64,000 nt of DNA. It comes from a bacterium. GTDB taxonomy: Bacteria; Bacteroidota; Bacteroidia; NS11-12g; UBA955. The position numbers and the translations under genes were made by a program. A model generated the notes under the pieces. That model did not search any database. It worked only from the letters and a program-made list of their open reading frames with translations, and was not told where the DNA came from. Positions within the stretch are counted from its first letter, which is position 1. Each line of letters opens with the position of its first letter. Below, in pieces: positions 6,673-16,817 of the stretch. The stretch is taken from the NCBI GenBank assembly GCA_029945665.1, contig JAQSCZ010000125.1:67-64066 (forward strand), in the 5' to 3' direction.

Positions 6673-7374
6673 TTAAAAATTCAAAAGATTTTTACCTTCC
6701 CAAGTCCCAGTTGATTTGTATGGTTGAAATCTTGCAAATAGCTCTTCTTTATACCAATTGTTTTTTCGAGTTCTTCTAATGGCTTCTTGATGTTGCTTGC
6801 TTTTATAAGCAAACTGCTTCACTGACTCAAAATCTTTCCATAAACTAAAAGTCGCCATTTGAACAATTGGAACTTCACCTACTCCTTTGGTATAAATCAA
6901 TCCTGCGTTCCCTTCCAAGGCTTCCTCTGATGTTGGCACATAATTCCAAAATCGCAAGAGCCAATTCCACTTAATAGTAGCTCTTGTAATAATGGCAATT
7001 GGGGCACTAGGATCCAAATCGGCTCCTTTCTCAAAAGGATTTTTACCAATCCATGCGCCACTTGCTGAAATGCTTTTCATATAAAGTGTAAATAACTCTT
7101 CAGTATGTAAAGCATATTGCTTTATCAAATCTGAACCGGTGAAAAATTCTTGTGCAGCGTTTTCAGATTCCCAAACCTGAAGAAGGCAATAAATAGACCA
7201 GTCAGGCAAAGGATTAAACCCTCTTCCTTTTCCACTACCCATCAATCGATAAAATGTCAGACCTTTTACATCTGCTAAATCTTTTTTGGCAAACTGCATC
7301 ATTTTAAATCCCCATACCTTATTGCTTAAAGTTGCAAACTTAAAAAAAGAAAGTGTTGTGATTTGTTGACTCAT
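6673..7374 (-). CDS. CrtA-like protein (spheroidene-monooxygenase / carotenoid 2-hydroxylase family), putative
   Basis: 233 aa. The N-terminal pattern 'LSFFKF..L..KVWGF..M......L.....GL.FY.LMGSG.G.GF.P.PDW..Y..L.VW' matches my memory of the CrtA family. It lies in the same strand array as the rhodopsin and crtY-blh. Confidence 0.5.
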   Translation of the reverse strand: MSQQITTLSFFKFATLSNKVWGFKMMQFAKKDLADVKGLTFYRLMGSGKGRGFNPLPDWSIYCLLQVWESENAAQEFFTGSDLIKQYALHTEELFTLYMKSISASGAWIGKNPFEKGADLDPSAPIAIITRATIKWNWLLRFWNYVPTSEEALEGNAGLIYTKGVGEVPIVQMATFSLWKDFESVKQFAYKSKQHQEAIRRTRKNNWYKEELFARFQPYKSTGTWEGKNLLNF

Positions 7375-7613
7375 ATTTTAAGGGATCTAATTTTATCTTT
7401 CAGAGAATACCTGCTGGCGGAAATCCTTTAGATTATCTAATAACACCAAATAGCTTCAGTTGTTTTTCGATATTTGTAAATGTAAGACATTATAAGCAGA
7501 ATGAATAAATACATAAAATAAAATCATTCCATACGACCACTACCCTATTGTTTATTCGAAAATTTAAGAACTCCATGATTGCTTATGGCATTTCAATAAA
7601 AAAATAGCATTGA

Positions 7614-9629
7614 TTACGATCGGTGAAACATTGCATAGAATTGATGCATTTTTAAAACATGGGGGATACTTAAACAAGATAAAACTATAAAAAAAAGACC
7701 CGCTGCCTGCTGACCTGCAAAAAACAAAGCGTACAAAATAATCATTGCACCTCCGATGCTAAATGGCAACGACTTTTTCCACAAAGTTGATGACCGTTCA
7801 TTTAACCCTGTTGAAAGGTGACGCCAACCATGCATACTGTGTTGGCCAACAAAATAAATACCGAACGAAATAAGCAAAGGCAACATGCTTGAAAGCAATA
7901 AATAGATTAATGTTAAAAGCATGTATTTTGATTTATTTAAAACGGATAACAAGATGCCCAATCCAAGTGTTAGAATTTGAATAAATAGTATTTGCCCCTC
8001 AGATATTTTTTTAAGAACAATGGCAATTTGCAAGTTTGGGATTTGTTTTAAAATATCTGATAATTCTACAAAATGAAAACTTAGTATCGTCATTAAAACC
8101 GTAAATCCCCAAAAAAACGATGACAAGCCTTGGATTAAATTCCATTCCTTAAAATCAGCCTGACCAAAATGCCACATGGAATAGGCCATAAAAATCAGCA
8201 AGGCAACGTCTGGGAATAAATACCAAATGAATCCCAAAAGCACGCCTTTCAATACATAATTTAACATAAAATAAAAAAGTTGCTTATGGTTTTTTACTTT
8301 CCGTGACGTTAAGTGATCCAACGCACCATGAGCAAGACCCACGGTCAAAAAACCCACAACCAAAATGCTTCCAGCGATGTATTCAAAATTTAAAACCGAG
8401 AGAAAAACCGCTAAAATTGTAAATAAAAAAGGGTAAAACAATAATGGCAAACGAATACATCTTTGAAGGACATCTTTTACCACAGCTTTAATGAAAATTC
8501 GCTTTGGTAATTTTGAAAAAATAACTATTTCTTTTGTAATGCTCGTTTTTTCGCGAAGAAAACTTAAAACCTTTATTAAGGCCACTTTCTTAAACAAGGT
8601 TTCGAAAATTATTTTCCCATATTCAGGTTTATCTGTTAAAATTTTAAGCAACAAACGGTCATAAAATCCAAATCTTTTTTTTCTGATAATTCTTTTCTGC
8701 AATTGATTATTTTTAATGGCCTCCATTTGTACAATCGCATCTTCGGCCATCGCATGAAAAGCATAACCTGTTGTGCATTTTAGCATATCTGCTTTGACAC
8801 CCATATTTACCCAATGTGAACCATAGTGATCTTTTTCCATGTTGGCACTTGACATTGGAATTACCCCTTGTTCAGTTTCAATAATTTCAAATGAAACGCC
8901 TAGTGCTTTCGAATACTCATCTAATATCAATTCTGCTTCTGATTTTAATAATTTTTGAGTACCAAATCTGGTTAGTTCTATCAATGCTGTATCTTCGGTA
9001 AAGGGCAGTGTATATACAAATTGGGTAAAATTATTTTGAGGGACATTAAAATCCATCATCACCATTGTAGAAGTGTCAAATGTTTTTTTGTCTGTTTTAA
9101 TTTTCCAACCAAAAAAGGACTGATTTAAATGAGTTTGATTGTTTTTTGGCTTTAAAAATACCGGTGGCCGACTATCGAAAACATACTTAGCGCGTAGTGT
9201 TTCATTTTCTAATTTTAATTCAAATTGCTCAGCCTTTACATCAGGAATTCCAGTAAAGAAGGTTGCAAAATTTGTCACCTGACAATTCAAAAGACAACTT
9301 TTAGCCGCGTGGTATAAATCGATTCCTTTCACATGGAAATAATGCAATGGATTAATTGGCTGTTTGGCAATGCCGCTTATTTCTATATTCGACCAGCTAT
9401 AACTTACAAGTGTATTTAATTTTAGTTTAAAAAGTTCTTGTTCTGTCGCCCAAAAACAAAAAGTCCTATCGTTGGTCGTTTTACCATCTGGCTCAATAAT
9501 AGCAATGGTCTTACCATTTAGTAAACCATTTTCGTGCAACATTAAAATCAACAAGCAATTCGCTGCACCTAATCCAATGAATAGGAAATCAAATTTCAAA
9601 GTTGAATTATATTTTTCGGTTGATTGCAT
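7614..9629 (-). CDS. crtY-blh: Fusion protein: lycopene beta-cyclase (CrtY-type, N-terminal) + Brp/Blh beta-carotene 15,15'-dioxygenase (C-terminal)
   Basis: One uninterrupted ORF. The track start at 9653 is TTG; the ATG at 9629 is preferred. The N-terminal half has the FAD fold 'FDFLFIGLGAANC', 'DRTFCFW' and 'FVYTLPF..LIE.TRF'. The C-terminal roughly 280 aa is polytopic, with Blh-type His motifs 'HGALDH', 'WHFGQAD' and 'QHSMHGWRH'. Confidence 0.85.
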   Translation of the reverse strand: MQSTEKYNSTLKFDFLFIGLGAANCLLILMLHENGLLNGKTIAIIEPDGKTTNDRTFCFWATEQELFKLKLNTLVSYSWSNIEISGIAKQPINPLHYFHVKGIDLYHAAKSCLLNCQVTNFATFFTGIPDVKAEQFELKLENETLRAKYVFDSRPPVFLKPKNNQTHLNQSFFGWKIKTDKKTFDTSTMVMMDFNVPQNNFTQFVYTLPFTEDTALIELTRFGTQKLLKSEAELILDEYSKALGVSFEIIETEQGVIPMSSANMEKDHYGSHWVNMGVKADMLKCTTGYAFHAMAEDAIVQMEAIKNNQLQKRIIRKKRFGFYDRLLLKILTDKPEYGKIIFETLFKKVALIKVLSFLREKTSITKEIVIFSKLPKRIFIKAVVKDVLQRCIRLPLLFYPFLFTILAVFLSVLNFEYIAGSILVVGFLTVGLAHGALDHLTSRKVKNHKQLFYFMLNYVLKGVLLGFIWYLFPDVALLIFMAYSMWHFGQADFKEWNLIQGLSSFFWGFTVLMTILSFHFVELSDILKQIPNLQIAIVLKKISEGQILFIQILTLGLGILLSVLNKSKYMLLTLIYLLLSSMLPLLISFGIYFVGQHSMHGWRHLSTGLNERSSTLWKKSLPFSIGGAMIILYALFFAGQQAAGLFFIVLSCLSIPHVLKMHQFYAMFHRS

Positions 9630-9709
9630 TTTTAAGGTTATAAATGAATACAATAAAAAAGGGATGGCACCTTTTAAAGTTTGCCACCCCTATCATATTT
9701 TTAAATAAA

Positions 9710-10429
9710 TTAATCTTGAGAATTTCTGCTCAAAGCATAAATTACTAAACCGAATCCGATTTTGTTTACAGCATCGGCAATGTTGTATACAATATCCATA
9801 GCATGACTTGCAGCTGCAGAATCACTTACCAATTGGATACCGAATAATCCACCTGGTGTTCCTAAAATATAACCCAATGGATAAATAGCCCATCCTACTA
9901 ATACGAACCAAGCAAGAATGCGCGTTGCCTTTGCAACTTGTGGTCCCGCTGTTTGTGCTAATTTAGCAACATCACCAAACCAAACAAGGTAAGCAATGTA
10001 GAAGTAAGCCGCTCCAGAAATCACACCCCATAACACACTGCTATCTCTGTCGATTGTTTCGCCAAAATAACCAGTTACTAACATCACCAAAGATGCAAAA
10101 ATCAATTTCCATAACAATCCAATTTTAGCACCTGCTTTTTTGGTTATTAAGTAAAATTCTACGCACATCAAAGGCACTGTTAAGATCCAATCAACGTAAC
10201 GGAAAAAAGTTGGAGAATCACCTGTTTCTAAATTGTAGCCCCTCATGTAATAATAGTGAACCGCTGCAATGAATGTAATTAATCCCGATACAAGAACTGA
10301 TGTTCTCCATTTAGCGGAGGTATTATTCAGTTCAAAAAAGAAAAATACCGAAGCAGCCATCATGGCCATGGTGCCGATGAAGAATGTAAAAGCAACGTAA
10401 TTGTCGCTTGCGATTTTTAAATGTTCCAT
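9710..10429 (-). CDS. Proteorhodopsin-family light-driven proton pump (DTE motif, Met at spectral-tuning site)
   Basis: 239 aa, 7 TM. Helix C 'RYVDWILTVPLMCVEFY' gives D80/T84/E91, equivalent to PR D97/T101/E108. H58 corresponds to PR H75. Helix G 'NIADAVNKIGFG' carries D219 and the Schiff-base K223. Confidence 0.95.
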   Translation of the reverse strand: MEHLKIASDNYVAFTFFIGTMAMMAASVFFFFELNNTSAKWRTSVLVSGLITFIAAVHYYYMRGYNLETGDSPTFFRYVDWILTVPLMCVEFYLITKKAGAKIGLLWKLIFASLVMLVTGYFGETIDRDSSVLWGVISGAAYFYIAYLVWFGDVAKLAQTAGPQVAKATRILAWFVLVGWAIYPLGYILGTPGGLFGIQLVSDSAAASHAMDIVYNIADAVNKIGFGLVIYALSRNSQD

Positions 10430-10677
10430 TTTTTTTTAAATTTGATTTAAGTTTGTAAATATTTTATTCAATTTAAGTTAAACAAAATATTATTTAAAAA
10501 TGTTTTCATTTGTTTAAGTATAAAACAAAGGCACTAGCTGATAAAATTCTATACTCCTAACTTGTCTTTTAAAATACAAAGCAGTGTATAGTAAATGTTT
10601 AAATAATTTACCACAAAGACAAATCCTCTGTCAACTAGAACAAATTAACCATGGATTTAGGTGATGAAAAAGAATTT

Positions 10678-11424
10678 TTACGCCTTGGTTATAAACTGTT
10701 TACGAATTTTATTGGGCATCTTCACCTGAACCTCAGATCCTTTTGCAAGAAAAACAGAAATGGGTTTAACATTTTGAATAAAGGGCGTAAAAGCCTCCCC
10801 ATATAATTTCTCGATATCGCAAATAAGCGCAGATTTTATAACCGGAAAAACTTGCCAACGCGGATGTGCAAGACTATATTCTATTGAAGTCGTTTCATTC
10901 AACTTGTTGTAACCATAATAATGCTCAAAAATAAATTCTTCTTCAGAACCAGGTTCAATATATTGGCCATTTGGATTAGCACTGACCGTCATTTTACACC
11001 AATCCGTATCTTTTGTTTTCCATTGATAGGACACATCTAAAATTTGACTATTATGAGTAATCGCATGACTCATTTTAGCCGTGCTATAATGCTCATTGTA
11101 TAATAAGTTTGCGATACTTGACACCAAGAAGCTTGGAACTATTTCAGAGATAAACCCTACACCTCGCTTCCATTCCCTTCCATCAAAATATTTGATATAG
11201 TATCGCAAGTTAACTTCTTCGAAATTTACAAAGCCTGGCCATTTTACCCCCATTACTTGTGTATTGTTAAATAGGAATCCTACAACGCTTACAATGGCCT
11301 TACCTTTCCATAAATCCAATTGGGTATAAGGAGGCAAGTGCGGCAACAAGATTAATGGATCAACTTCGAAATTAAACATTGCGAGGTATTCCCATTTGGC
11401 CCTTAAAAATATATGCTTACCCAA
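10678..11424 (-). CDS. DUF2071 (YqjF-like) family protein
   Basis: Conserved N-terminus 'AKWEYLAMFNFEVDP'. The track start at 11469 is TTG and an ATG lies at 11463; both overlap the upstream gene by 38-44 nt. A TTG at 11424 sits 1 nt after the upstream stop and keeps the conserved N-terminus, so I prefer it. The start is uncertain. Confidence 0.7.
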   Translation of the reverse strand: MGKHIFLRAKWEYLAMFNFEVDPLILLPHLPPYTQLDLWKGKAIVSVVGFLFNNTQVMGVKWPGFVNFEEVNLRYYIKYFDGREWKRGVGFISEIVPSFLVSSIANLLYNEHYSTAKMSHAITHNSQILDVSYQWKTKDTDWCKMTVSANPNGQYIEPGSEEEFIFEHYYGYNKLNETTSIEYSLAHPRWQVFPVIKSALICDIEKLYGEAFTPFIQNVKPISVFLAKGSEVQVKMPNKIRKQFITKA

Positions 11425-11425
11425 G

Positions 11426-12061
11426 TTACTTGATAATTTGTGTTGGCTTCCCAGGTTTGGCATATTCAAAGCGATCTATAAAATCGGTATTATAATAAGC
11501 ATCAATCCCATTGCTGCAGATCGAATTTGCTTTCTCTAAATGAATAAATCCATCATCCGAGACAATGTCTTGATGTATAATTATACCAGTAATCTTTCCA
11601 ATAACTAAAAAAGTTCTATTTAACTGAATTGGAATTATTTCTTCAAGCGACAATGCATATTTAATATCGCTCTCTCTAACAAATGGCGCAATACAATTCA
11701 ATTCAAACTCAGGTGTTAATCCAACTTCTTCAAACTCACTAATTTCTTTTGAATATTTTGCACTGGTTTGATGGGCTTGTTGAACAAACTGCGATTGAAT
11801 GTGATTGATCGTGTAAACACCAGTGGACTGAATATTCTCTAGGGTGTGTGCCGCTGATTCTATCGGCCTGTTGATGTAACCGATTAAAGGCGGATTTGAG
11901 CCAAGGTGAACAATGCTGCTAAAAATACCGAGGTTATTTTGACCATTGGCGTTGGTTGTTCCAATTAGACTTACAGACTTAAATCCTGTTAAACTATTTA
12001 TAAAATTTGCGCGGTAGAAACGCTCCCACCTATCCATGTCCTCGGTATTATAAAATGCCAT
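11426..12061 (-). CDS. Flavin reductase-like (FMN-binding split-barrel) protein
   Basis: 211 aa. 'FKSVSLIGTTNANGQNNLGIFSSIVHLGSNPPLIG' is typical of Flavin_Reduct domains. ATG start. Confidence 0.8.
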   Translation of the reverse strand: MAFYNTEDMDRWERFYRANFINSLTGFKSVSLIGTTNANGQNNLGIFSSIVHLGSNPPLIGYINRPIESAAHTLENIQSTGVYTINHIQSQFVQQAHQTSAKYSKEISEFEEVGLTPEFELNCIAPFVRESDIKYALSLEEIIPIQLNRTFLVIGKITGIIIHQDIVSDDGFIHLEKANSICSNGIDAYYNTDFIDRFEYAKPGKPTQIIK

Positions 12062-12114
12062 ACTGTTATATTAATAATTCAAACATTACTAAGCGCAAAT
12101 TGTTTAAGATTTCT

Positions 12115-13590
12115 ATGAATGAAGCTGTATTGATTTTTCCGCATCAGTTGTTTCAACAACATCCTGCTTTGCAAAAAAATAGGCCGGTGTTTTTGGTAGA
12201 AGAATGGCTTTTCTTTCGACAATACCATTTTCATACACATAAACTCATACTGCACAGAGCAAGTATGAAATTTTATGAAGCTTATTTAAACGAACAAAAT
12301 TATACTGTTAACTACATCGATTCTAATGATGAAAAAAATGATATTACCGTATTAATTTCATTTCTGAACGAAAATAAAATTACAAAAATTCATTTGGCAG
12401 ATGTTGTTGATGATTGGTTATCGCAGCGTATCCACAATGCGTGCTTAAAATATGGCATTGCTATCAGTATTAGTGGTTCGCCATCTTTTTTAAATACCAT
12501 GGAAGCAAACAATAGGTATTTTAATAACAAGCAGACCTACTTTCAAACCGATTTTTATATTTATCAGAGAAAGGAACTTCAATTGTTATTAGAAGCCAAT
12601 GGTAAACCAGTTGGCGGCAAATGGACCTTCGATTCAGAAAACAGAATGAAGTTTCCAAAAAAAGAAACAGCGCCCTCAGTTCATTTTCCACCAACCAATC
12701 CATATTTAACAGAAGCTGTTGAATATGTAGACCAATATTTTCCCTCTAATTATGGAGATGCACATGCTCCTCATTTTTTCGCAACTACCTTTATAGAAGC
12801 AGAAAACTGTTTGAATGATTTTCTAAAAAATAGATTTGAAAAATTTGGTATTTATGAGGATGCCATAGTTGCCAATGAAAACATTTTGCACCATTCTGTT
12901 CTTTCACCTATGTTGAACATAGGAATATTAACGCCATTACAAATACTAGAGGCCGTATTAATGCATGCTAGCATTAACAAGACACCACTCAATTCGCTAG
13001 AAGGCTTTATTCGACAAATTGTTGGTTGGCGAGAATTTATAAGAATCGTATACGAACGCGAAGGAAAAAAACAAAGAACCACTAATTACTTTAAATTCAA
13101 ACGAAAGATTCCGCGTAGTTTTTGGACAGGCACAACTGGCATAGCTCCTATAGATATTACAATTCAGAAAACACTTAAGACCGGATATTGCCATCACATT
13201 GAACGTCTCATGGTACTAGGTAATTTCATGTTACTATGTGAGTTCGACCCTGACGAAGTTCATCGCTGGTTTATGGAATTATTTATTGATGCCTATGACT
13301 GGGTGATGGTGCCTAATGTATATGGCATGACACAGTTTGCAGATGGCGGATTAATGACCACAAAACCCTATATAAGCGGCAGCAATTATTTAATGAAAAT
13401 GAGTAATTATGAAAAAGGTGAATGGCAGCCAATTTGGGATGGATTATTCTGGCGCTTTATGCATGAGCACCGCAGCTTTTTTTTAAAAAATCCAAGACTT
13501 GGTATGTTGGTTCACACATTCGACAAAATGAGTGACGAAAAAAGAAATTGCCATTTGATCAATGCAGAAAACTACCTAAACACTCTGTAA
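12115..13590 (+). CDS. Cryptochrome/photolyase-family protein, COG3046 / PhrB-CryB-related branch
   Basis: Start re-set to the ATG at 12115 (MNEAVLIFPHQLF), because the track start at 12007 overlaps the divergent flavin reductase. Shows 'GWREFIR', 'TGYCHHIERLMVLGNF', 'DAYDWVMVPNVYGMTQFADGG' and 'KPYISGSNY'. Confidence 0.85.
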   Translation: MNEAVLIFPHQLFQQHPALQKNRPVFLVEEWLFFRQYHFHTHKLILHRASMKFYEAYLNEQNYTVNYIDSNDEKNDITVLISFLNENKITKIHLADVVDDWLSQRIHNACLKYGIAISISGSPSFLNTMEANNRYFNNKQTYFQTDFYIYQRKELQLLLEANGKPVGGKWTFDSENRMKFPKKETAPSVHFPPTNPYLTEAVEYVDQYFPSNYGDAHAPHFFATTFIEAENCLNDFLKNRFEKFGIYEDAIVANENILHHSVLSPMLNIGILTPLQILEAVLMHASINKTPLNSLEGFIRQIVGWREFIRIVYEREGKKQRTTNYFKFKRKIPRSFWTGTTGIAPIDITIQKTLKTGYCHHIERLMVLGNFMLLCEFDPDEVHRWFMELFIDAYDWVMVPNVYGMTQFADGGLMTTKPYISGSNYLMKMSNYEKGEWQPIWDGLFWRFMHEHRSFFLKNPRLGMLVHTFDKMSDEKRNCHLINAENYLNTL

Positions 13591-13624
13591 AATACAATTC
13601 TAAATAATTGAATATTCACCTTAA

Positions 13625-13783
13625 ATGAAACCTATAAAAAAAGAAAACTTAGCTTCAAAAATTTGCATAGTATGCCAAAGACCGTTTACTTGGAGAAAGA
13701 AATGGGAAAAGGTATGGCATGAGGTGAAATATTGTAGTGACAAGTGCCGAATAAGCAAAAAAAAGATTGAGACTATTTCATGA
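13625..13783 (+). CDS. DUF2256-type small zinc-ribbon protein (52 aa), missed by the ORF track
   Basis: My translation is MKPIKKENLASKICIVCQRPFTWRKKWEKVWHEVKYCSDKCRISKKKIETIS. It has the CxxC...W..V.YCS..C signature. Its TGA overlaps the ATG of the next photolyase gene (ATGA at 13780-13783). Confidence 0.8.
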   Translation: MKPIKKENLASKICIVCQRPFTWRKKWEKVWHEVKYCSDKCRISKKKIETIS

Positions 13784-15282
13784 CGCAATCGGTTAATATC
13801 ATCTGGTTCAAACGCGACCTTCGACTTGCGGATCACAAGCCCCTTCAATTGGCCATTGCAGAGGGCTTGCCTACTGTTTTGTTGTATTGTTTCGAACCAT
13901 CGCTGCTAAATCATGGTGATAGTTCCGAAAGACATTGGCGATTTATTTATCAATCCCTTCAACAAATGCAAAAGGTTTTAAGAACTTACAATTTATCCAT
14001 TCAAATTGCATACTCAGAGGTCATCGACGCATTACAAACAATACAAAATCACTGCAACATAAAAACTATTTTTTCGCACCAAGAAATAGGCAATCAAATA
14101 AGTTTCAAACGAGACAAAGCTGTTAAATTATTTTGCAATAACAATAACATCCAATGGATTGAATCGACTACCAATGGCATAACAAGAGGATTAAAAGGCA
14201 GAAAAGACTTTAGTAAGCATTGGCATGCAGTAATGAACGAACCTCTATTTGAAATTGATTTAAACAAGTTGCAAATATTTAACATGGGTTCAATACTAAG
14301 CAATGTTAGTGAAAATGAAATTTTTTACAATAGCATCACTTCAAAACATTCTTATATACAGCCAGGCGGGGAACAATATGCCCATGAATATATGAAGAGT
14401 TTTTTAAGCCAAAGGGTCGCTAATTATAGCAAGCATATTAGCAAACCTATGGAAAGTAGAAAAAGTTGTAGCCGACTTTCGCCATACCTTGCTTGGGGCA
14501 ACTTAAGCATCAAACAAATTTATCAAACCTCTTTAAAATCATTTGTACAAAATAAAGATAAATTCAACATCAATTTTTTTATTAATAGGCTGCATTGGCA
14601 TTGTCATTTTATTCAGAAGTTCGAAAGCGACTGCTCCATTGAATATAAAAATCTGAACAATGGTTTTGATGAGATTAGAAATAGTAAAAATGAAGCTTAT
14701 ATTACAGCTTGGGAAAAAGGGGAAACAGGTTACCCTTTGGTTGATGCCTGTATGAAGTGCGTAATAGAAACGGGTTATTTAAATTTCAGAATGCGAAGTA
14801 TGCTTGTTACTTTTCTTACCCATCAACTTTGGCAACCCTGGCAGGCGGGAGCTCACCATTTAGCCAAACAATTTTTAGATTATGAGCCAGGCATTCATTA
14901 TCCGCAATTTCAAATGCAGGCAGGCACCATGGGCGTAAATACTATTCGCACTTACAATCCCATAAAACAATCAAAAGACCACGATCCACAAGGTGTATTT
15001 ATTAAAAAATGGATTCCTGCATTGCAACATATTCCAGAAAACATAATTCACGAACCGTGGGTTATGTCAGAAATGGAACAAAAGATGTATAAGTGCATCA
15101 TTGGTTCAGATTATGCCGCACCAATTATTGATTCTAAAACAGCCGCTGCTTTTGCCAGGGTCCACTTATGGGAAACAAAAAAATCAAAAAATGTATTAAA
15201 AAACAATGCAAAAATTTTAGCCATTCATACCAACCGAAAAAATAAAGAAGATGATAACACTTTACAGATTAATTTTAGTTAA
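13780..15282 (+). CDS. Cryptochrome/photolyase-family flavoprotein, canonical N-to-C topology, divergent subclass
   Basis: 500 aa. N-terminal 'IIWFKRDLRLADHKPL'; FAD domain 'SRLSPYLAWGNLS' and 'TGYPLVDACM..ETGYLNFRMRSM'. The usual D.D..SN..WQW block reads 'LDYEPGIHYPQFQMQAG'. Confidence 0.85.
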   Translation: MTQSVNIIWFKRDLRLADHKPLQLAIAEGLPTVLLYCFEPSLLNHGDSSERHWRFIYQSLQQMQKVLRTYNLSIQIAYSEVIDALQTIQNHCNIKTIFSHQEIGNQISFKRDKAVKLFCNNNNIQWIESTTNGITRGLKGRKDFSKHWHAVMNEPLFEIDLNKLQIFNMGSILSNVSENEIFYNSITSKHSYIQPGGEQYAHEYMKSFLSQRVANYSKHISKPMESRKSCSRLSPYLAWGNLSIKQIYQTSLKSFVQNKDKFNINFFINRLHWHCHFIQKFESDCSIEYKNLNNGFDEIRNSKNEAYITAWEKGETGYPLVDACMKCVIETGYLNFRMRSMLVTFLTHQLWQPWQAGAHHLAKQFLDYEPGIHYPQFQMQAGTMGVNTIRTYNPIKQSKDHDPQGVFIKKWIPALQHIPENIIHEPWVMSEMEQKMYKCIIGSDYAAPIIDSKTAAAFARVHLWETKKSKNVLKNNAKILAIHTNRKNKEDDNTLQINFS

Positions 15283-15379
15283 GACTTGCTTAACCTTTTA
15301 GATTAAAATGTATAAATAGTTAAGTAGTTTAAAGCGAAGCAATTTTTGACAACTAAAAAAGAATAAAAAAATAAAAACA

Positions 15380-15661
15380 ATGACCCCAGATAATTTAAGT
15401 GAAATAGATATTGACCGCATTATTGAAATGGCTTGGGAAGACAGAACGACTTTCGAGGCCATAGAAAAGCAATTTGGGTTGAAACAAGAAGATGTAATCA
15501 AACTGATGCGCAAAACGCTCAAGCGCTCTAGTTTTAAATTGTGGCGCGAGCGCACTAAAGGCCGCAACACCAAACACGAGGCGCTAAGAGACAATGCCAT
15601 TACACGTTTTAAATGCAAACTCCAGCGCACCATTACTAATAATAAAATAAGTAAGCGCTAA
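15380..15661 (+). CDS. TIGR03643/DUF2805-like small protein (photolyase-associated)
   Basis: 93 aa. The 'IDRIIEMAWEDRTTFEAIEKQFGL...VIKLMR..L....FK.WRER' pattern matches my memory of this family. Its stop lies 1 nt before the next photolyase gene. Confidence 0.7.
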   Translation: MTPDNLSEIDIDRIIEMAWEDRTTFEAIEKQFGLKQEDVIKLMRKTLKRSSFKLWRERTKGRNTKHEALRDNAITRFKCKLQRTITNNKISKR

Positions 15662-15662
15662 T

Positions 15663-16817
15663 ATGACTTTAGATTTAATTACCGAAAAAAATCCAAGTTC
15701 AAACTATTCCTTTCCAACCAATCAAAAGTTTATTGCGGAAAGGATTAATCAAATAGACCCCATTCTATATGGCAAGACCAGAAATTTTATCGACGGCTCG
15801 GTTACCTATTTATCACCCTATATTTCCAGAGGCGTTATTAGTGGAAAACAGATTCTGGAAAATATTTTGCAAAAAGGATATCGACCAAATGAGATAGAAA
15901 AATTCATACAAGAACTTGCATGGCGAGAATATTTTCAGCGTATTTGGCAAAATATACAGGATGGCATTTGGGATGATATAAAACAAGCACAACCCGATGT
16001 AAAGCATACTCAAATGGTTGAATCGGTAATAAATGCTAACACAGGCGTATCAGCCATTGACGATGCTATTGAACAATTATACGCAAATGGATACATGCAT
16101 AACCACTTGCGCATGTATACAGCATCGATGGTATGCAATATGGCCAAAGCGCATTGGTTACAGCCCTCTCAATGGATGTATTACCATTTGCTGGATGGCG
16201 ACATAGCGAGCAACAATTGCAGTTGGCAATGGGTAGCCGCAGCATTTGCATCCAAGAAATATTATTTCAACCAAGAAAATATCAATAAATATACGTTTAG
16301 CACCCAAAAAAATAGCTACTTGGACAGGCCTTACGAGGAAATTATGGCGATGGAAGTGCCAGAACCATTGCGTGCGAAAAGTAATTTGAGTTTACAAACT
16401 ACATTGCCATATACTGAATTACCTAGTATCAACCCATCAATTCCAACACTCATATACAACAGTTATAATTTGGATATTGAGTGGCACAAGGATGAGCAGG
16501 TGAATAGAATTTTGTTGTTAGAACCTTCGCACTTTAAAAAATATCCTGTGAGCAAAAAAGTTCTTGCGTTCATCATTGATCTTGCAAAAAATATAGAGGG
16601 GATAAAACTTTTCTGTGGTGAAATTAATGAAATTATTGATTCAAATGCCCAATCAAATATTGCCATTTCAAACATCATATCAAAAGAACACCCATCAAGT
16701 AATCATTATCCTGGAATAAAGGAAAGCAGAGACTGGATGTTCCCAGAAATCACAGGAAATTATCCTTCTTTTTTTGCGTATTGGAAAAAATGCGCTAAGC
16801 AACTTGGAATAAAATAG
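15663..16817 (+). CDS. Inverted-topology photolyase (NewPHL-like): FAD/catalytic domain first, small alpha/beta-like domain last
   Basis: 384 aa. It starts directly with helical-domain motifs 'SVTYLSPYISRGVIS', 'ELAWREYF', 'NGYMHNHLRMY' and 'LLDGDIASNNCSWQWVA'. There is no N-terminal WFRRDLR domain. The C-terminal roughly 125 aa ('RILLLEPSHFKKYPVSKKVLAFIIDL...YPSFFAYWKK') resembles the photolyase alpha/beta domain and linker. Confidence 0.75.
   Translation: MTLDLITEKNPSSNYSFPTNQKFIAERINQIDPILYGKTRNFIDGSVTYLSPYISRGVISGKQILENILQKGYRPNEIEKFIQELAWREYFQRIWQNIQDGIWDDIKQAQPDVKHTQMVESVINANTGVSAIDDAIEQLYANGYMHNHLRMYTASMVCNMAKAHWLQPSQWMYYHLLDGDIASNNCSWQWVAAAFASKKYYFNQENINKYTFSTQKNSYLDRPYEEIMAMEVPEPLRAKSNLSLQTTLPYTELPSINPSIPTLIYNSYNLDIEWHKDEQVNRILLLEPSHFKKYPVSKKVLAFIIDLAKNIEGIKLFCGEINEIIDSNAQSNIAISNIISKEHPSSNHYPGIKESRDWMFPEITGNYPSFFAYWKKCAKQLGIK

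What the first reader, a model, noticed from the sequence alone, without database searches (positions are those of the whole stretch)
7614..9629. Single ORF fusing lycopene beta-cyclase (CrtY) to the retinal-forming Blh dioxygenase
Seen in the sequence: one uninterrupted 671-679-aa frame. Residues up to about 395 carry CrtY hallmarks: the FAD fold FDFLFIGLGAANC, DRTFCFW, and FVYTLPF...LIELTRF. From about residue 400 the protein is a multi-TM domain with His motifs HGALDH, WHFGQAD and QHSMHGWRH, spaced about 53, 110 and 3-4 residues apart as in Blh/Brp enzymes. The junction is near nt 8456-8470 with no stop or frameshift. From established knowledge: CrtY and Blh catalyse consecutive steps (lycopene to beta-carotene to two retinal) and are normally separate genes in proteorhodopsin operons. 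Inference: the fusion would channel lycopene to retinal right next to the opsin gene, which ends 80 nt upstream. It would also compete with any carotenoid-antenna or pigment pathway for beta-carotene. I do not know how widespread or characterised this fusion is.
Basis: partly seen in the sequence, partly recalled or inferred. Interest (0 to 1): 0.65.

Follow-up and report, generated by a model that had tools for sequence, protein, structure and literature searches.

The report
Natural lycopene cyclase–retinal dioxygenase fusion gene
The gene just downstream of a proteorhodopsin really does encode one protein joining the enzyme that makes beta-carotene to the enzyme that cuts it into retinal, but this fusion is the usual arrangement in hundreds of Bacteroidota species, so it is real and useful but not rare.

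Summary
Window 7614-9629 (minus strand) is one 671-aa ORF, or 679 aa from an upstream TTG. Residues 22-384 (679-aa frame) match Pfam Lycopene_cycl over its full length, and residues 434-668 match Pfam BCD/Blh. An independent assembly of the same sequence and contigs of a related strain cover the junction without indels. The fusion is not unusual: 178 of 188 non-redundant public loci with contiguous CrtY and Blh parts are a single ORF, in freshwater and marine Bacteroidota. Two code-25 Gracilibacteria MAGs carry it too. The fused cyclase domains form one clade apart from 46 stand-alone CrtY sequences (50/50 NJ bootstraps). An opsin lies within the 4-8 kb flanks in 106 of 145 testable loci. Predicted catalytic residues are conserved, including H434, H487, H597 and H657. 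A terminator-like hairpin sits between the opsin and the fusion gene. Best reading: a bifunctional lycopene-to-retinal enzyme that supplies the adjacent green-tuned proton-pumping proteorhodopsin, probably expressed at a low level by read-through. Substrate channelling is plausible but untested. I found no paper describing the bacterial fusion, and database names for it are inconsistent. Interest is modest.

The parts
7614..9629 (-). crtY-blh fusion ORF, 671 aa from ATG 9629; stop codon at 7614-7616. An in-frame TTG at 9653 would add 8 residues but is probably not the start.
   Evidence: Homologues start at the ATG-equivalent position.
8460..9629 (-). CrtY-type FAD-dependent lycopene beta-cyclase domain (residues 1-390). 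It carries the dinucleotide-binding G19-x-G21-x-A-N24 motif, FCFW, the FVYTLPF motif, and the ELTRF motif with E218.
   Evidence: Pfam PF05834 at 146 bits over the full profile. Invariant or >=90% conserved residues. AlphaFold2 model with mean pLDDT 88.6. Foldseek top hits are geranylgeranyl reductase / PHBH-type flavoproteins, E 1e-10.
8448..8459 (-). Junction (residues 391-394). There is no linker to speak of: the basic stretch KLPKRIFIKAVVKDVLQRCIR runs straight into the first membrane helix of the Blh part.
   Evidence: Extents of the nearest CrtY-only proteins (query 12-390) and Blh-only proteins (query 395-666); hydropathy; contigs of two runs cover it without indels.
7617..8447 (-). [quoted passage not shown] About nine membrane helices, with invariant H434 (nt 8328-8330), H487 (8169-8171), H597 (7839-7841) and H657 (7659-7661).
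   Evidence: PF15461 at 103 bits and TIGR03753 at 122.7 bits, above cutoff. Helices. The invariant His residues, by order and spacing, correspond to the His-21/78/188/256 iron plane proposed for Blh 66A03 in bioRxiv 10.64898/2026.08.06.743266.
9655..9690 (-). Intrinsic-terminator-like element between opsin and fusion gene. The stem is GGGGTGGCA / TGCCATCCC (9682-9690 and 9661-9669) and is followed by TTTTTT (9655-9660). It lies 25 nt before the ATG.
   Evidence: Sequence. The fold gives -21.9 kcal/mol, z -2.6. An equivalent hairpin is present in all 58 opsin-then-fusion spacers, usually followed by a T-run, with different stem sequences. With strict criteria it is found in 63 of 98 distinct spacers.
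9710..10429 (-). Proteorhodopsin gene (239 aa), the consumer of the retinal. It has D80/T84/E91 (the DTE proton-pump motif), Met at the GPR-105 tuning position (green), H58, D219 and the Schiff-base K223.
   Evidence: Pfam Bac_rhodopsin at 144.7 bits. The best solved relatives are proteorhodopsins 9jov/9jou (300 bits) and GPR (176 bits).
6673..7374 (-). CrtA-like gene (233 aa) 240 nt downstream on the same strand. It may be a carotenoid-modifying oxygenase. It is a neighbour, not a conserved part of the module.
   Evidence: NCBIfam NF045923 at 231.5 bits, below the cutoff of 300. Found beside the module only in L012 and L036.

Best explanation
The ORF encodes a bifunctional membrane enzyme. 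Its N-terminal flavoprotein domain cyclises lycopene to beta-carotene. Its C-terminal nine-helix iron dioxygenase cleaves beta-carotene at the 15,15' bond into two all-trans-retinal molecules, which bind Lys223 of the proteorhodopsin encoded 80 nt upstream. Opsin plus fusion form a two-gene module that needs only lycopene from the host. The domain order matches the crtY-then-blh gene order of classical operons. The fused cyclase lineage is monophyletic, so the fusion is probably old and arose once, by loss of the stop between adjacent genes. A hairpin terminator after the opsin gene leaves only 25 nt before the fusion ATG, so the enzyme is probably made by read-through at a much lower level than the opsin. 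The likely advantage is that the cyclase is tethered to the dioxygenase in the membrane, so beta-carotene is captured before other enzymes modify it. Shown here: ORF integrity, domain identity, residue conservation, fold, spread of the family, opsin linkage and the hairpin. Inferred: both activities, read-through expression and substrate capture.
For: Both domains match their profiles over full length, and the Blh part passes the NCBIfam cutoff. Across 99 fusions of 49-66% identity, the FAD motif, the ELTRF glutamate and the four His residues are invariant or nearly so. The His residues stay invariant in fusions whose pairwise identity falls to 24-49%, which argues for selection on both halves. 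By order and spacing, the invariant His set corresponds to the His-21/78/188/256 site proposed for Blh 66A03. The AlphaFold2 model is confident (pLDDT 88.6, pTM 0.75), and the N-terminal domain has a flavoprotein fold. In 178 of 188 loci the two parts are one ORF. An opsin lies within the 4-8 kb flanks in 106 of 145 testable loci, 79 of them in the same opsin-then-fusion order. No other gene family is shared by more than 20 loci. The fused CrtY domains form one clade at 50/50 bootstraps. The terminator-like hairpin recurs. The operon order crtEIBY, blh and the retinal-forming activity of Blh are published (PMC1175822). Published work reports that Blh needs a beta-ring and cleaves zeaxanthin poorly.
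Against: No activity was measured for any member of this fusion family that I could find. The cyclase half scores far below the NCBIfam equivalog cutoffs for CrtY (61.8 against 215), so it is a divergent subfamily whose product (bicyclic or monocyclic) is unproven. No other crt genes lie in the 64-kb window, so a lycopene supply is assumed, not shown. In 39 of 145 loci no opsin lies within 4-8 kb. Bacteroidota promoters are not covered by the scan tool, so an internal promoter for the fusion gene cannot be excluded. I had no model coordinates or PAE, so the interdomain geometry is unknown.
Confidence: 0.85

Rival explanations
1. The fusion is real and both halves act, but it gives no channelling or substrate capture. 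It persists only because it guarantees 1:1 co-expression, membrane anchoring of the cyclase, and joint inheritance of two genes that are useless apart.
For: The domains abut without a linker, as expected from simple loss of a stop codon between adjacent crtY and blh genes. The module sits in many unrelated genomic contexts, which fits selection for compact co-inheritance. Ten of 188 loci have the two parts adjacent but not in one ORF, although two of these are explained by genetic code 25.
Against: The fusion has been kept over deep divergence, down to ~28-31% identity, in 178 of 188 loci. pTM 0.75 hints at a defined interdomain arrangement. Neither point proves channelling.
Confidence: 0.35
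2. The N-terminal domain is not a bicyclase. It could be a lycopene monocyclase, giving gamma-carotene and so one retinal per substrate. Or it could have another role, such as acting on a different carotenoid or supplying reduced flavin to keep the Blh iron reduced.
For: It falls well below the CrtY and CrtL equivalog cutoffs. It belongs to a clade separate from all sampled stand-alone CrtY. Published work reports that Blh cleaves gamma-carotene to retinal plus an acyclic analogue. From my own knowledge, CrtY-type monocyclases exist in Bacteroidota (Flavobacterium P99-3, cited within PMC2889829). A CrtA-like gene next door hints at a modified-carotenoid pathway in this organism.
Against: The match to Lycopene_cycl is full-length, and the cyclase signature residues are conserved across the family. 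The tight linkage to an opsin argues for a role in retinal supply.
Confidence: 0.12
3. The single frame is a sequencing or assembly error that hides two separate genes.
For: The junction region (about 8332-8632) is the most variable part of the gene between close strains, at 88-93% identity. The contigs of run X2 break at 8514-8539.
Against: An independent contig of run X1 matches 7500-9800 exactly. The X2 contig that covers the junction has substitutions only. A 97% identical protein from another assembly has the same frame. 178 loci from unrelated assemblies have the same single ORF.
Confidence: 0.01

Closest known systems
Separate crtY and blh genes of proteorhodopsin photosystem operons (crtEIBY, blh; e.g. 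BAC MED66A03; Sabehi et al. 2005, PMC1175822)
   Same: The same two consecutive reactions, the same order (cyclase then dioxygenase), the same linkage to a proteorhodopsin gene, and Blh of the same Pfam and TIGRFAM family.
   Different: There they are two polypeptides inside a full crt operon. Here they are one polypeptide with no linker, no other crt gene lies nearby, and the cyclase belongs to a separate clade that scores below the CrtY equivalog cutoff.
Thecamonas trahens CrtI-CrtB-CrtYc/d-Blh four-domain protein (Rius et al. 2023, PMC10016063)
   Same: A natural fusion that places a lycopene cyclase directly N-terminal to a Blh domain, interpreted as serving retinal production.
   Different: It is eukaryotic, it has four domains, and the cyclase is the heterodimer-type CrtYc/d membrane cyclase, which is unrelated to the FAD-dependent CrtY fold found here.
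Other carotenoid-pathway fusions: fungal CrtYB/CarRA/AL-2, thraustochytrid CrtIBY, verrucomicrobial CrtIB in PR operons (PMC2889829 Table S2; PMC10016063; PMC10284914)
   Same: Neighbouring steps of one membrane-associated pathway fused into one protein.
   Different: Different enzyme pairs. None joins a CrtY-type flavoprotein cyclase to the cleavage enzyme.
Flavobacteriaceae PR-blh gene pairs (e.g. Dokdonia; from my own knowledge and PMC3587595)
   Same: An opsin directly followed by the retinal-forming gene, with the remaining crt genes elsewhere in the genome.
   Different: In those genomes blh is stand-alone and crtY sits in the distant crt cluster.

Membership tests
CrtY/CrtL-type lycopene cyclase (Pfam PF05834) | Full-length match above the Pfam gathering score | tested here: met
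   146.3 bits against 23.4; profile positions 1-372 of 380.
CrtY/CrtL-type lycopene cyclase (Pfam PF05834) | Score above the NCBIfam equivalog/subfamily cutoffs (TIGR01789 CrtY, TIGR01790, NF045687 CrtL) | tested here: not met
   61.8 against 215.2; 86.7 against 209.5; 33.5 against 500. It is therefore a divergent subfamily, not an equivalog of proteobacterial CrtY.
CrtY/CrtL-type lycopene cyclase (Pfam PF05834) | N-terminal dinucleotide (FAD) binding motif and the conserved acidic cyclase motif (FLEET-like ...ELT..F) | tested here: met
   G19 and N24 are invariant and G21 is >=90% conserved. E218, T220, R221 and F222 are >=90% conserved in 99 sequences. The role of these motifs comes from my own knowledge of the CrtY/CCS literature.
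CrtY/CrtL-type lycopene cyclase (Pfam PF05834) | PHBH / geranylgeranyl-reductase-like flavoprotein fold | tested here: met
   Foldseek top hits are 3oz2, 4opg and 3atq, at E about 1e-10 and probability 1.0, on a model of pLDDT 88.6.
CrtY/CrtL-type lycopene cyclase (Pfam PF05834) | Converts lycopene to beta-carotene | not testable with these tools
   Needs heterologous expression and HPLC.
[quoted passage not shown] | Match above the curated cutoffs | tested here: met
   PF15461 at 103 bits against 28; TIGR03753 at 122.7 against 95.25.
[quoted passage not shown] | Four conserved His residues proposed to hold the iron (His-21/78/188/256 of Blh 66A03) | tested here: met
   H434, H487, H597 and H657 are invariant in alignments A1, A2 and A3. 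The correspondence to 66A03 rests on order and spacing, not on a direct alignment.
[quoted passage not shown] | Polytopic membrane protein of about nine helices | tested here: met
   Hydropathy peaks and model helices from residue 398 to 670. Nine helices are reported for 66A03.
[quoted passage not shown] | Cleaves beta-carotene to retinal | not testable with these tools
   Needs an expression assay.
Bacteroidota CrtY-Blh fusion family (database family, no published name found) | Single ORF of about 640-700 aa, N-terminal CrtY then C-terminal Blh | tested here: met
   671 aa. The window protein is 49-97% identical to 120 listed clusters that all carry both Pfam domains. 178 of 188 loci are one ORF.
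Bacteroidota CrtY-Blh fusion family (database family, no published name found) | Cyclase domain inside the fused clade, apart from stand-alone CrtY | tested here: met
   One bipartition separates 70 fused (window included) from 46 stand-alone sequences, at 50/50 NJ bootstraps.
Bacteroidota CrtY-Blh fusion family (database family, no published name found) | Adjacent to a microbial rhodopsin gene | tested here: met
   The opsin ends 80 nt upstream. The same order is found in 79 of 145 testable loci.
Proteorhodopsin-clade proton pump (neighbour gene) | DTE motif, Schiff-base Lys, closest to solved proteorhodopsins | tested here: met
   D80/T84/E91 and K223; 9jov/9jou at 300 bits and GPR at 176 bits, against xanthorhodopsin 3ddl at 88 bits.

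The most novel reading that the evidence does not exclude
The fused lineage is an old, single-origin, retinal-dedicated enzyme that truly channels substrate. Beta-carotene made by the tethered cyclase would pass directly into the Blh cavity and so escape the host's hydroxylases and ketolases. Opsin plus fusion would then be a self-sufficient two-gene cassette that makes any lycopene producer phototrophic. Its presence in genetic-code-25 Gracilibacteria would mean that even reduced, host-dependent bacteria use it, perhaps on carotenoids scavenged from a host.
Probability: 0.25. Interest if true: 0.55.

Novelty: new member of a known kind. Interest (0 to 1): 0.33.

Why it matters
Most rhodopsin surveys score retinal capacity by looking for a separate blh gene and a separate crtY gene. 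In a large part of the Bacteroidota, including abundant freshwater and marine groups (Crocinitomicaceae, Schleiferiaceae, Cryomorphaceae, Chitinophagaceae, Saprospiraceae), both functions sit in one gene. Databases label that gene variously as 'lycopene beta-cyclase', 'Brp/Blh dioxygenase' or 'hypothetical protein', so automated pathway calls can miss one of the two steps. The family is also a ready-made natural test of whether fusing consecutive membrane steps gives substrate capture, and it is a compact part for engineering retinal production from lycopene. For this window itself the result is ordinary: a normal member of a common family.

Tried and rejected
- **Artefact hypothesis:** rejected.
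- **Second crtY, blh, crtI or crtB in the window:** tblastn with both halves and Pfam scans of ten size-appropriate ORFs found none.
- **PDB by sequence:** no homologue of either half. Foldseek explains only the flavoprotein half.
- **Literature:** seven full-text searches and Klassen 2010 Table S2 gave no description of a bacterial CrtY-Blh fusion. My recollection that the Salinibacter ruber genome paper discusses crtY/blh beside xanthorhodopsin could not be checked, because that paper is not held.
- **Is the fused cyclase the only cyclase of its genome?** A scan for stand-alone CrtY returned 46 stand-alone loci. A by-eye comparison of accession prefixes found no assembly shared with the fusion carriers. 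Only the best 80 of more than 570 hits are shown, so this is inconclusive.
- **Recent horizontal transfer as the cause of the very similar opsins:** rejected, because four-fold degenerate sites are near saturation.
- **MAG labels outside Bacteroidota (Synechococcus, Streptomyces, Bordetella, Methylotenera and others):** treated as mis-binning or default names. Only the Gracilibacteria label has independent support, from the genetic code.
- **Neighbours in a locus without an opsin (L077):** nothing related to carotenoids.
Full report
**What is there.** Window 7614..9653 on the minus strand is a single ORF of 679 aa from a TTG. The ATG at 9629 gives 671 aa, which is the length and start of almost all relatives, so I use ATG numbering except where stated. 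In the 679-aa frame, Pfam places Lycopene_cycl on residues 22-384, covering profile positions 1-372 of 380 at 146 bits. It places BCD (Blh) on residues 434-668, covering positions 2-262 of 267 at 103 bits. NCBIfam's Brp/Blh model passes its cutoff (122.7 against 95.25). The CrtY and CrtL equivalog models are matched but far below their cutoffs. The cyclase half is therefore a divergent member of the family.

**Is it an artefact?** No. An independent Logan contig from a freshwater-sediment run (X1, 23.4 kb, depth 12) covers 7500-9800 with no difference. A related strain from another study (X2, about 96-99% identical) has contigs covering 7500-8514 and 8539-9800 with substitutions only inside the ORF. 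A 97% identical protein lies in the same gene order in GCA_038205575.1. Homology gives much stronger evidence. All 120 listed protein clusters from the first search are about 610-750 aa and carry both Pfam domains. In the library clustered at 50% identity, roughly a hundred of the best 150 representatives are full-length fusions, down to 31% identity.

**How widespread.** Three scans of one-genome-per-species contigs returned full-length relatives in large numbers: 110 relatives, 433 relatives from one Blh peptide pattern and more. After removing duplicates, 188 loci have contiguous CrtY and Blh parts, and 178 of these are one uninterrupted ORF. The carriers are almost all Bacteroidota MAGs from lakes, rivers, sediments and the sea. 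They include Crocinitomicaceae, Vicingaceae, Schleiferiaceae, Cryomorphaceae, Saprospiraceae, Chitinophagaceae and Sphingobacteriales. Labels from other phyla are mostly mis-binning or default names. Two 'Candidatus Gracilibacteria' MAGs are an exception. Their only in-frame stops are four TGA codons, and ORFs across the whole locus lengthen when TGA is read as sense. The fusion is therefore intact under their genetic code.

**Anatomy.** The closest non-fused proteins in the 50% library mark the junction. CrtY-only proteins of about 395 aa align to residues 12-390, and Blh-only proteins of about 285 aa align to residues 395-666. Some of the CrtY-only entries may be split or truncated fusion genes, because in the genome scans every CrtY above 34% identity sits next to a Blh part. 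The two parts abut without a linker. The hydrophobic helix at 394-416, which Pfam's model does not cover, belongs to the Blh part.

The AlphaFold2 model built on 99 sequences is confident, with mean pLDDT 88.6 and pTM 0.75. Residues 10-393 form a mixed alpha/beta domain whose best structural matches are geranylgeranyl reductases and PHBH-type flavoproteins. Residues 398-670 are helices, which I group into about nine membrane helices with the hydropathy profile. Across 99 fusions the following are invariant or at least 90% conserved: G19, G21, N24, FCFW, Y206/L208/P209, E218-T220-R221-F222, H434, D438, H487, H519, H597, H604 and H657. H434, H487, H597 and H657 remain invariant in an alignment of distant fusions.

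A 2026 preprint on Blh 66A03 proposes an iron site of His-21/78/188/256 inside a nine-helix bundle, with His-192 outside the plane (bioRxiv 10.64898/2026.08.06.743266). By order and spacing, my four invariant histidines correspond to that set.

**Context.** The gene 80 nt upstream is a 239-aa rhodopsin with the DTE proton-pump motif (D80/T84/E91), Met at the GPR-105 tuning position and Schiff-base K223. Its closest solved relatives are proteorhodopsins, not xanthorhodopsin. Of 161 non-redundant fusion loci available at that stage, 145 had enough flank to test:

| Arrangement | Loci |
|---|---|
| Opsin immediately upstream, same strand | 79 |
| Opsin upstream, divergent | 17 |
| Opsin immediately downstream, same strand | 5 |
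| Opsin downstream, convergent | 2 |
| Opsin elsewhere in the flank | 3 |
| No opsin within 4-8 kb | 39 |

No other gene family is shared by more than 20 loci, and the recurrent ones are unrelated to carotenoids. The conserved unit is therefore two genes, the opsin and the fusion. No other crt gene lies in the 64-kb window.

**Expression signal.** The 80-nt spacer holds a 9-bp G+C-rich stem (9682-9690 / 9661-9669) followed by TTTTTT (9655-9660), 25 nt before the ATG. The consensus scan missed it because the loop exceeds its limit. All 58 opsin-then-fusion spacers first examined fold into a comparable hairpin, usually followed by a T-run, with unrelated stem sequences. A strict scripted definition finds it in 63 of 98 distinct spacers. 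I infer that the opsin is transcribed strongly and the enzyme gene is reached by partial read-through. That would suit a structural protein paired with a catalyst. This is inference, and Bacteroidota promoters were not scanned.

**Origin.** The classical operon order is crtEIBY, blh (PMC1175822), the same order as the two domains. In a neighbour-joining analysis of 70 fused and 46 stand-alone cyclase sequences, one split separates the two groups in 50 of 50 bootstraps. Every sampled stand-alone CrtY is at most 34% identical to the window domain. This fits one old fusion event. The stand-alone sample was limited to the best-scoring hits of one scan.

**Mechanism and its rivals.** The best-supported reading is a bifunctional lycopene-to-retinal enzyme serving the neighbouring proteorhodopsin. 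Published work reports that Blh needs at least one beta-ring, does not cleave lycopene, and cleaves zeaxanthin poorly. Tethering the cyclase to Blh would therefore let the cell capture beta-carotene before hydroxylases or ketolases modify it. Three alternatives remain. The fusion may bring only co-expression, anchoring and co-inheritance. The cyclase half may be a monocyclase or have another role. The artefact reading is excluded. Enzyme assays are needed to separate the first two from the main reading.

**Novelty.** The two enzyme families and their roles are known, and the fused architecture is abundant in public data. One NCBI record even names both halves. Seven full-text searches found no paper that describes or tests a bacterial CrtY-Blh fusion. 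The nearest published case is the eukaryotic CrtI-CrtB-CrtYc/d-Blh protein of Thecamonas trahens, which uses an unrelated cyclase family (PMC10016063). The window's gene is thus a new member of a known, common but uncharacterised family.

Noticed in passing
window 9710-10429 versus loci L001-L093: The opsin is 86-96% identical in protein across many loci whose adjacent fusion gene is only 35-64% identical. Four-fold degenerate sites of the opsin are near saturation (0.31-0.51 identity), so this reflects very strong purifying selection, not recent transfer.
   Followed up: partly
window 9732-10131 and 10532-10731, compared with L012: Against a close relative (97.5% nt identity over 19 kb), the 3' two-thirds of the opsin gene is only 72-84% identical and the region upstream of the opsin 65-70%. 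The flanks are 97-100% identical. This looks like a recombination mosaic confined to the opsin and its promoter region.
   Followed up: partly
L061 394-2355 and L070 6001-7962 ('Candidatus Gracilibacteria' MAGs JANNCQ01, JAYUDN01): The CrtY-Blh frame contains four in-frame TGA codons and no other stops, and ORFs across the whole locus lengthen when TGA is read as sense. These appear to be recoded (code 25-type) bacteria carrying an intact fusion. L070 also has a distant opsin (30% identity) at 10821-11468.
   Followed up: partly
window 6673-7374 (-): A CrtA-like gene (spheroidene-monooxygenase family, 231 bits, below cutoff) lies 240 nt downstream of the fusion gene. It may be a carotenoid hydroxylase or ketolase. 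It is found beside the module only in L012 and L036.
   Followed up: partly
window 10678-16817: A cluster of genes with light-related functions flanks the opsin module: DUF2071, a flavin-reductase-like gene, a DPRP/cryptochrome-like gene, a photolyase and a third FAD_binding_7 protein. DPRP and photolyase genes also lie near the module in L058, L059 and L064.
   Followed up: no
window 8332-8632: The stretch around the domain junction is the most variable part of the fusion gene between close strains (88-93% against 97-100% elsewhere). The contigs of run X2 break at 8514-8539.
   Followed up: no
L077, L082, L084, L086, L091, L094-L100 and others (39 loci): Fusion genes with no opsin within 4-8 kb. 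In L077 the two upstream genes (204 and 310 aa) have no Pfam match. Where the opsin is in these genomes, if there is one, is unknown.
   Followed up: partly
protein clusters P0029, P0034, P0043, P0054, P0254, P0311 and others: Public records call the same architecture 'lycopene beta-cyclase', 'beta-carotene 15,15'-dioxygenase, Brp/Blh family', 'hypothetical protein' or, once, a name listing both halves. Automated pathway calls will therefore often miss one of the two steps.
   Followed up: yes
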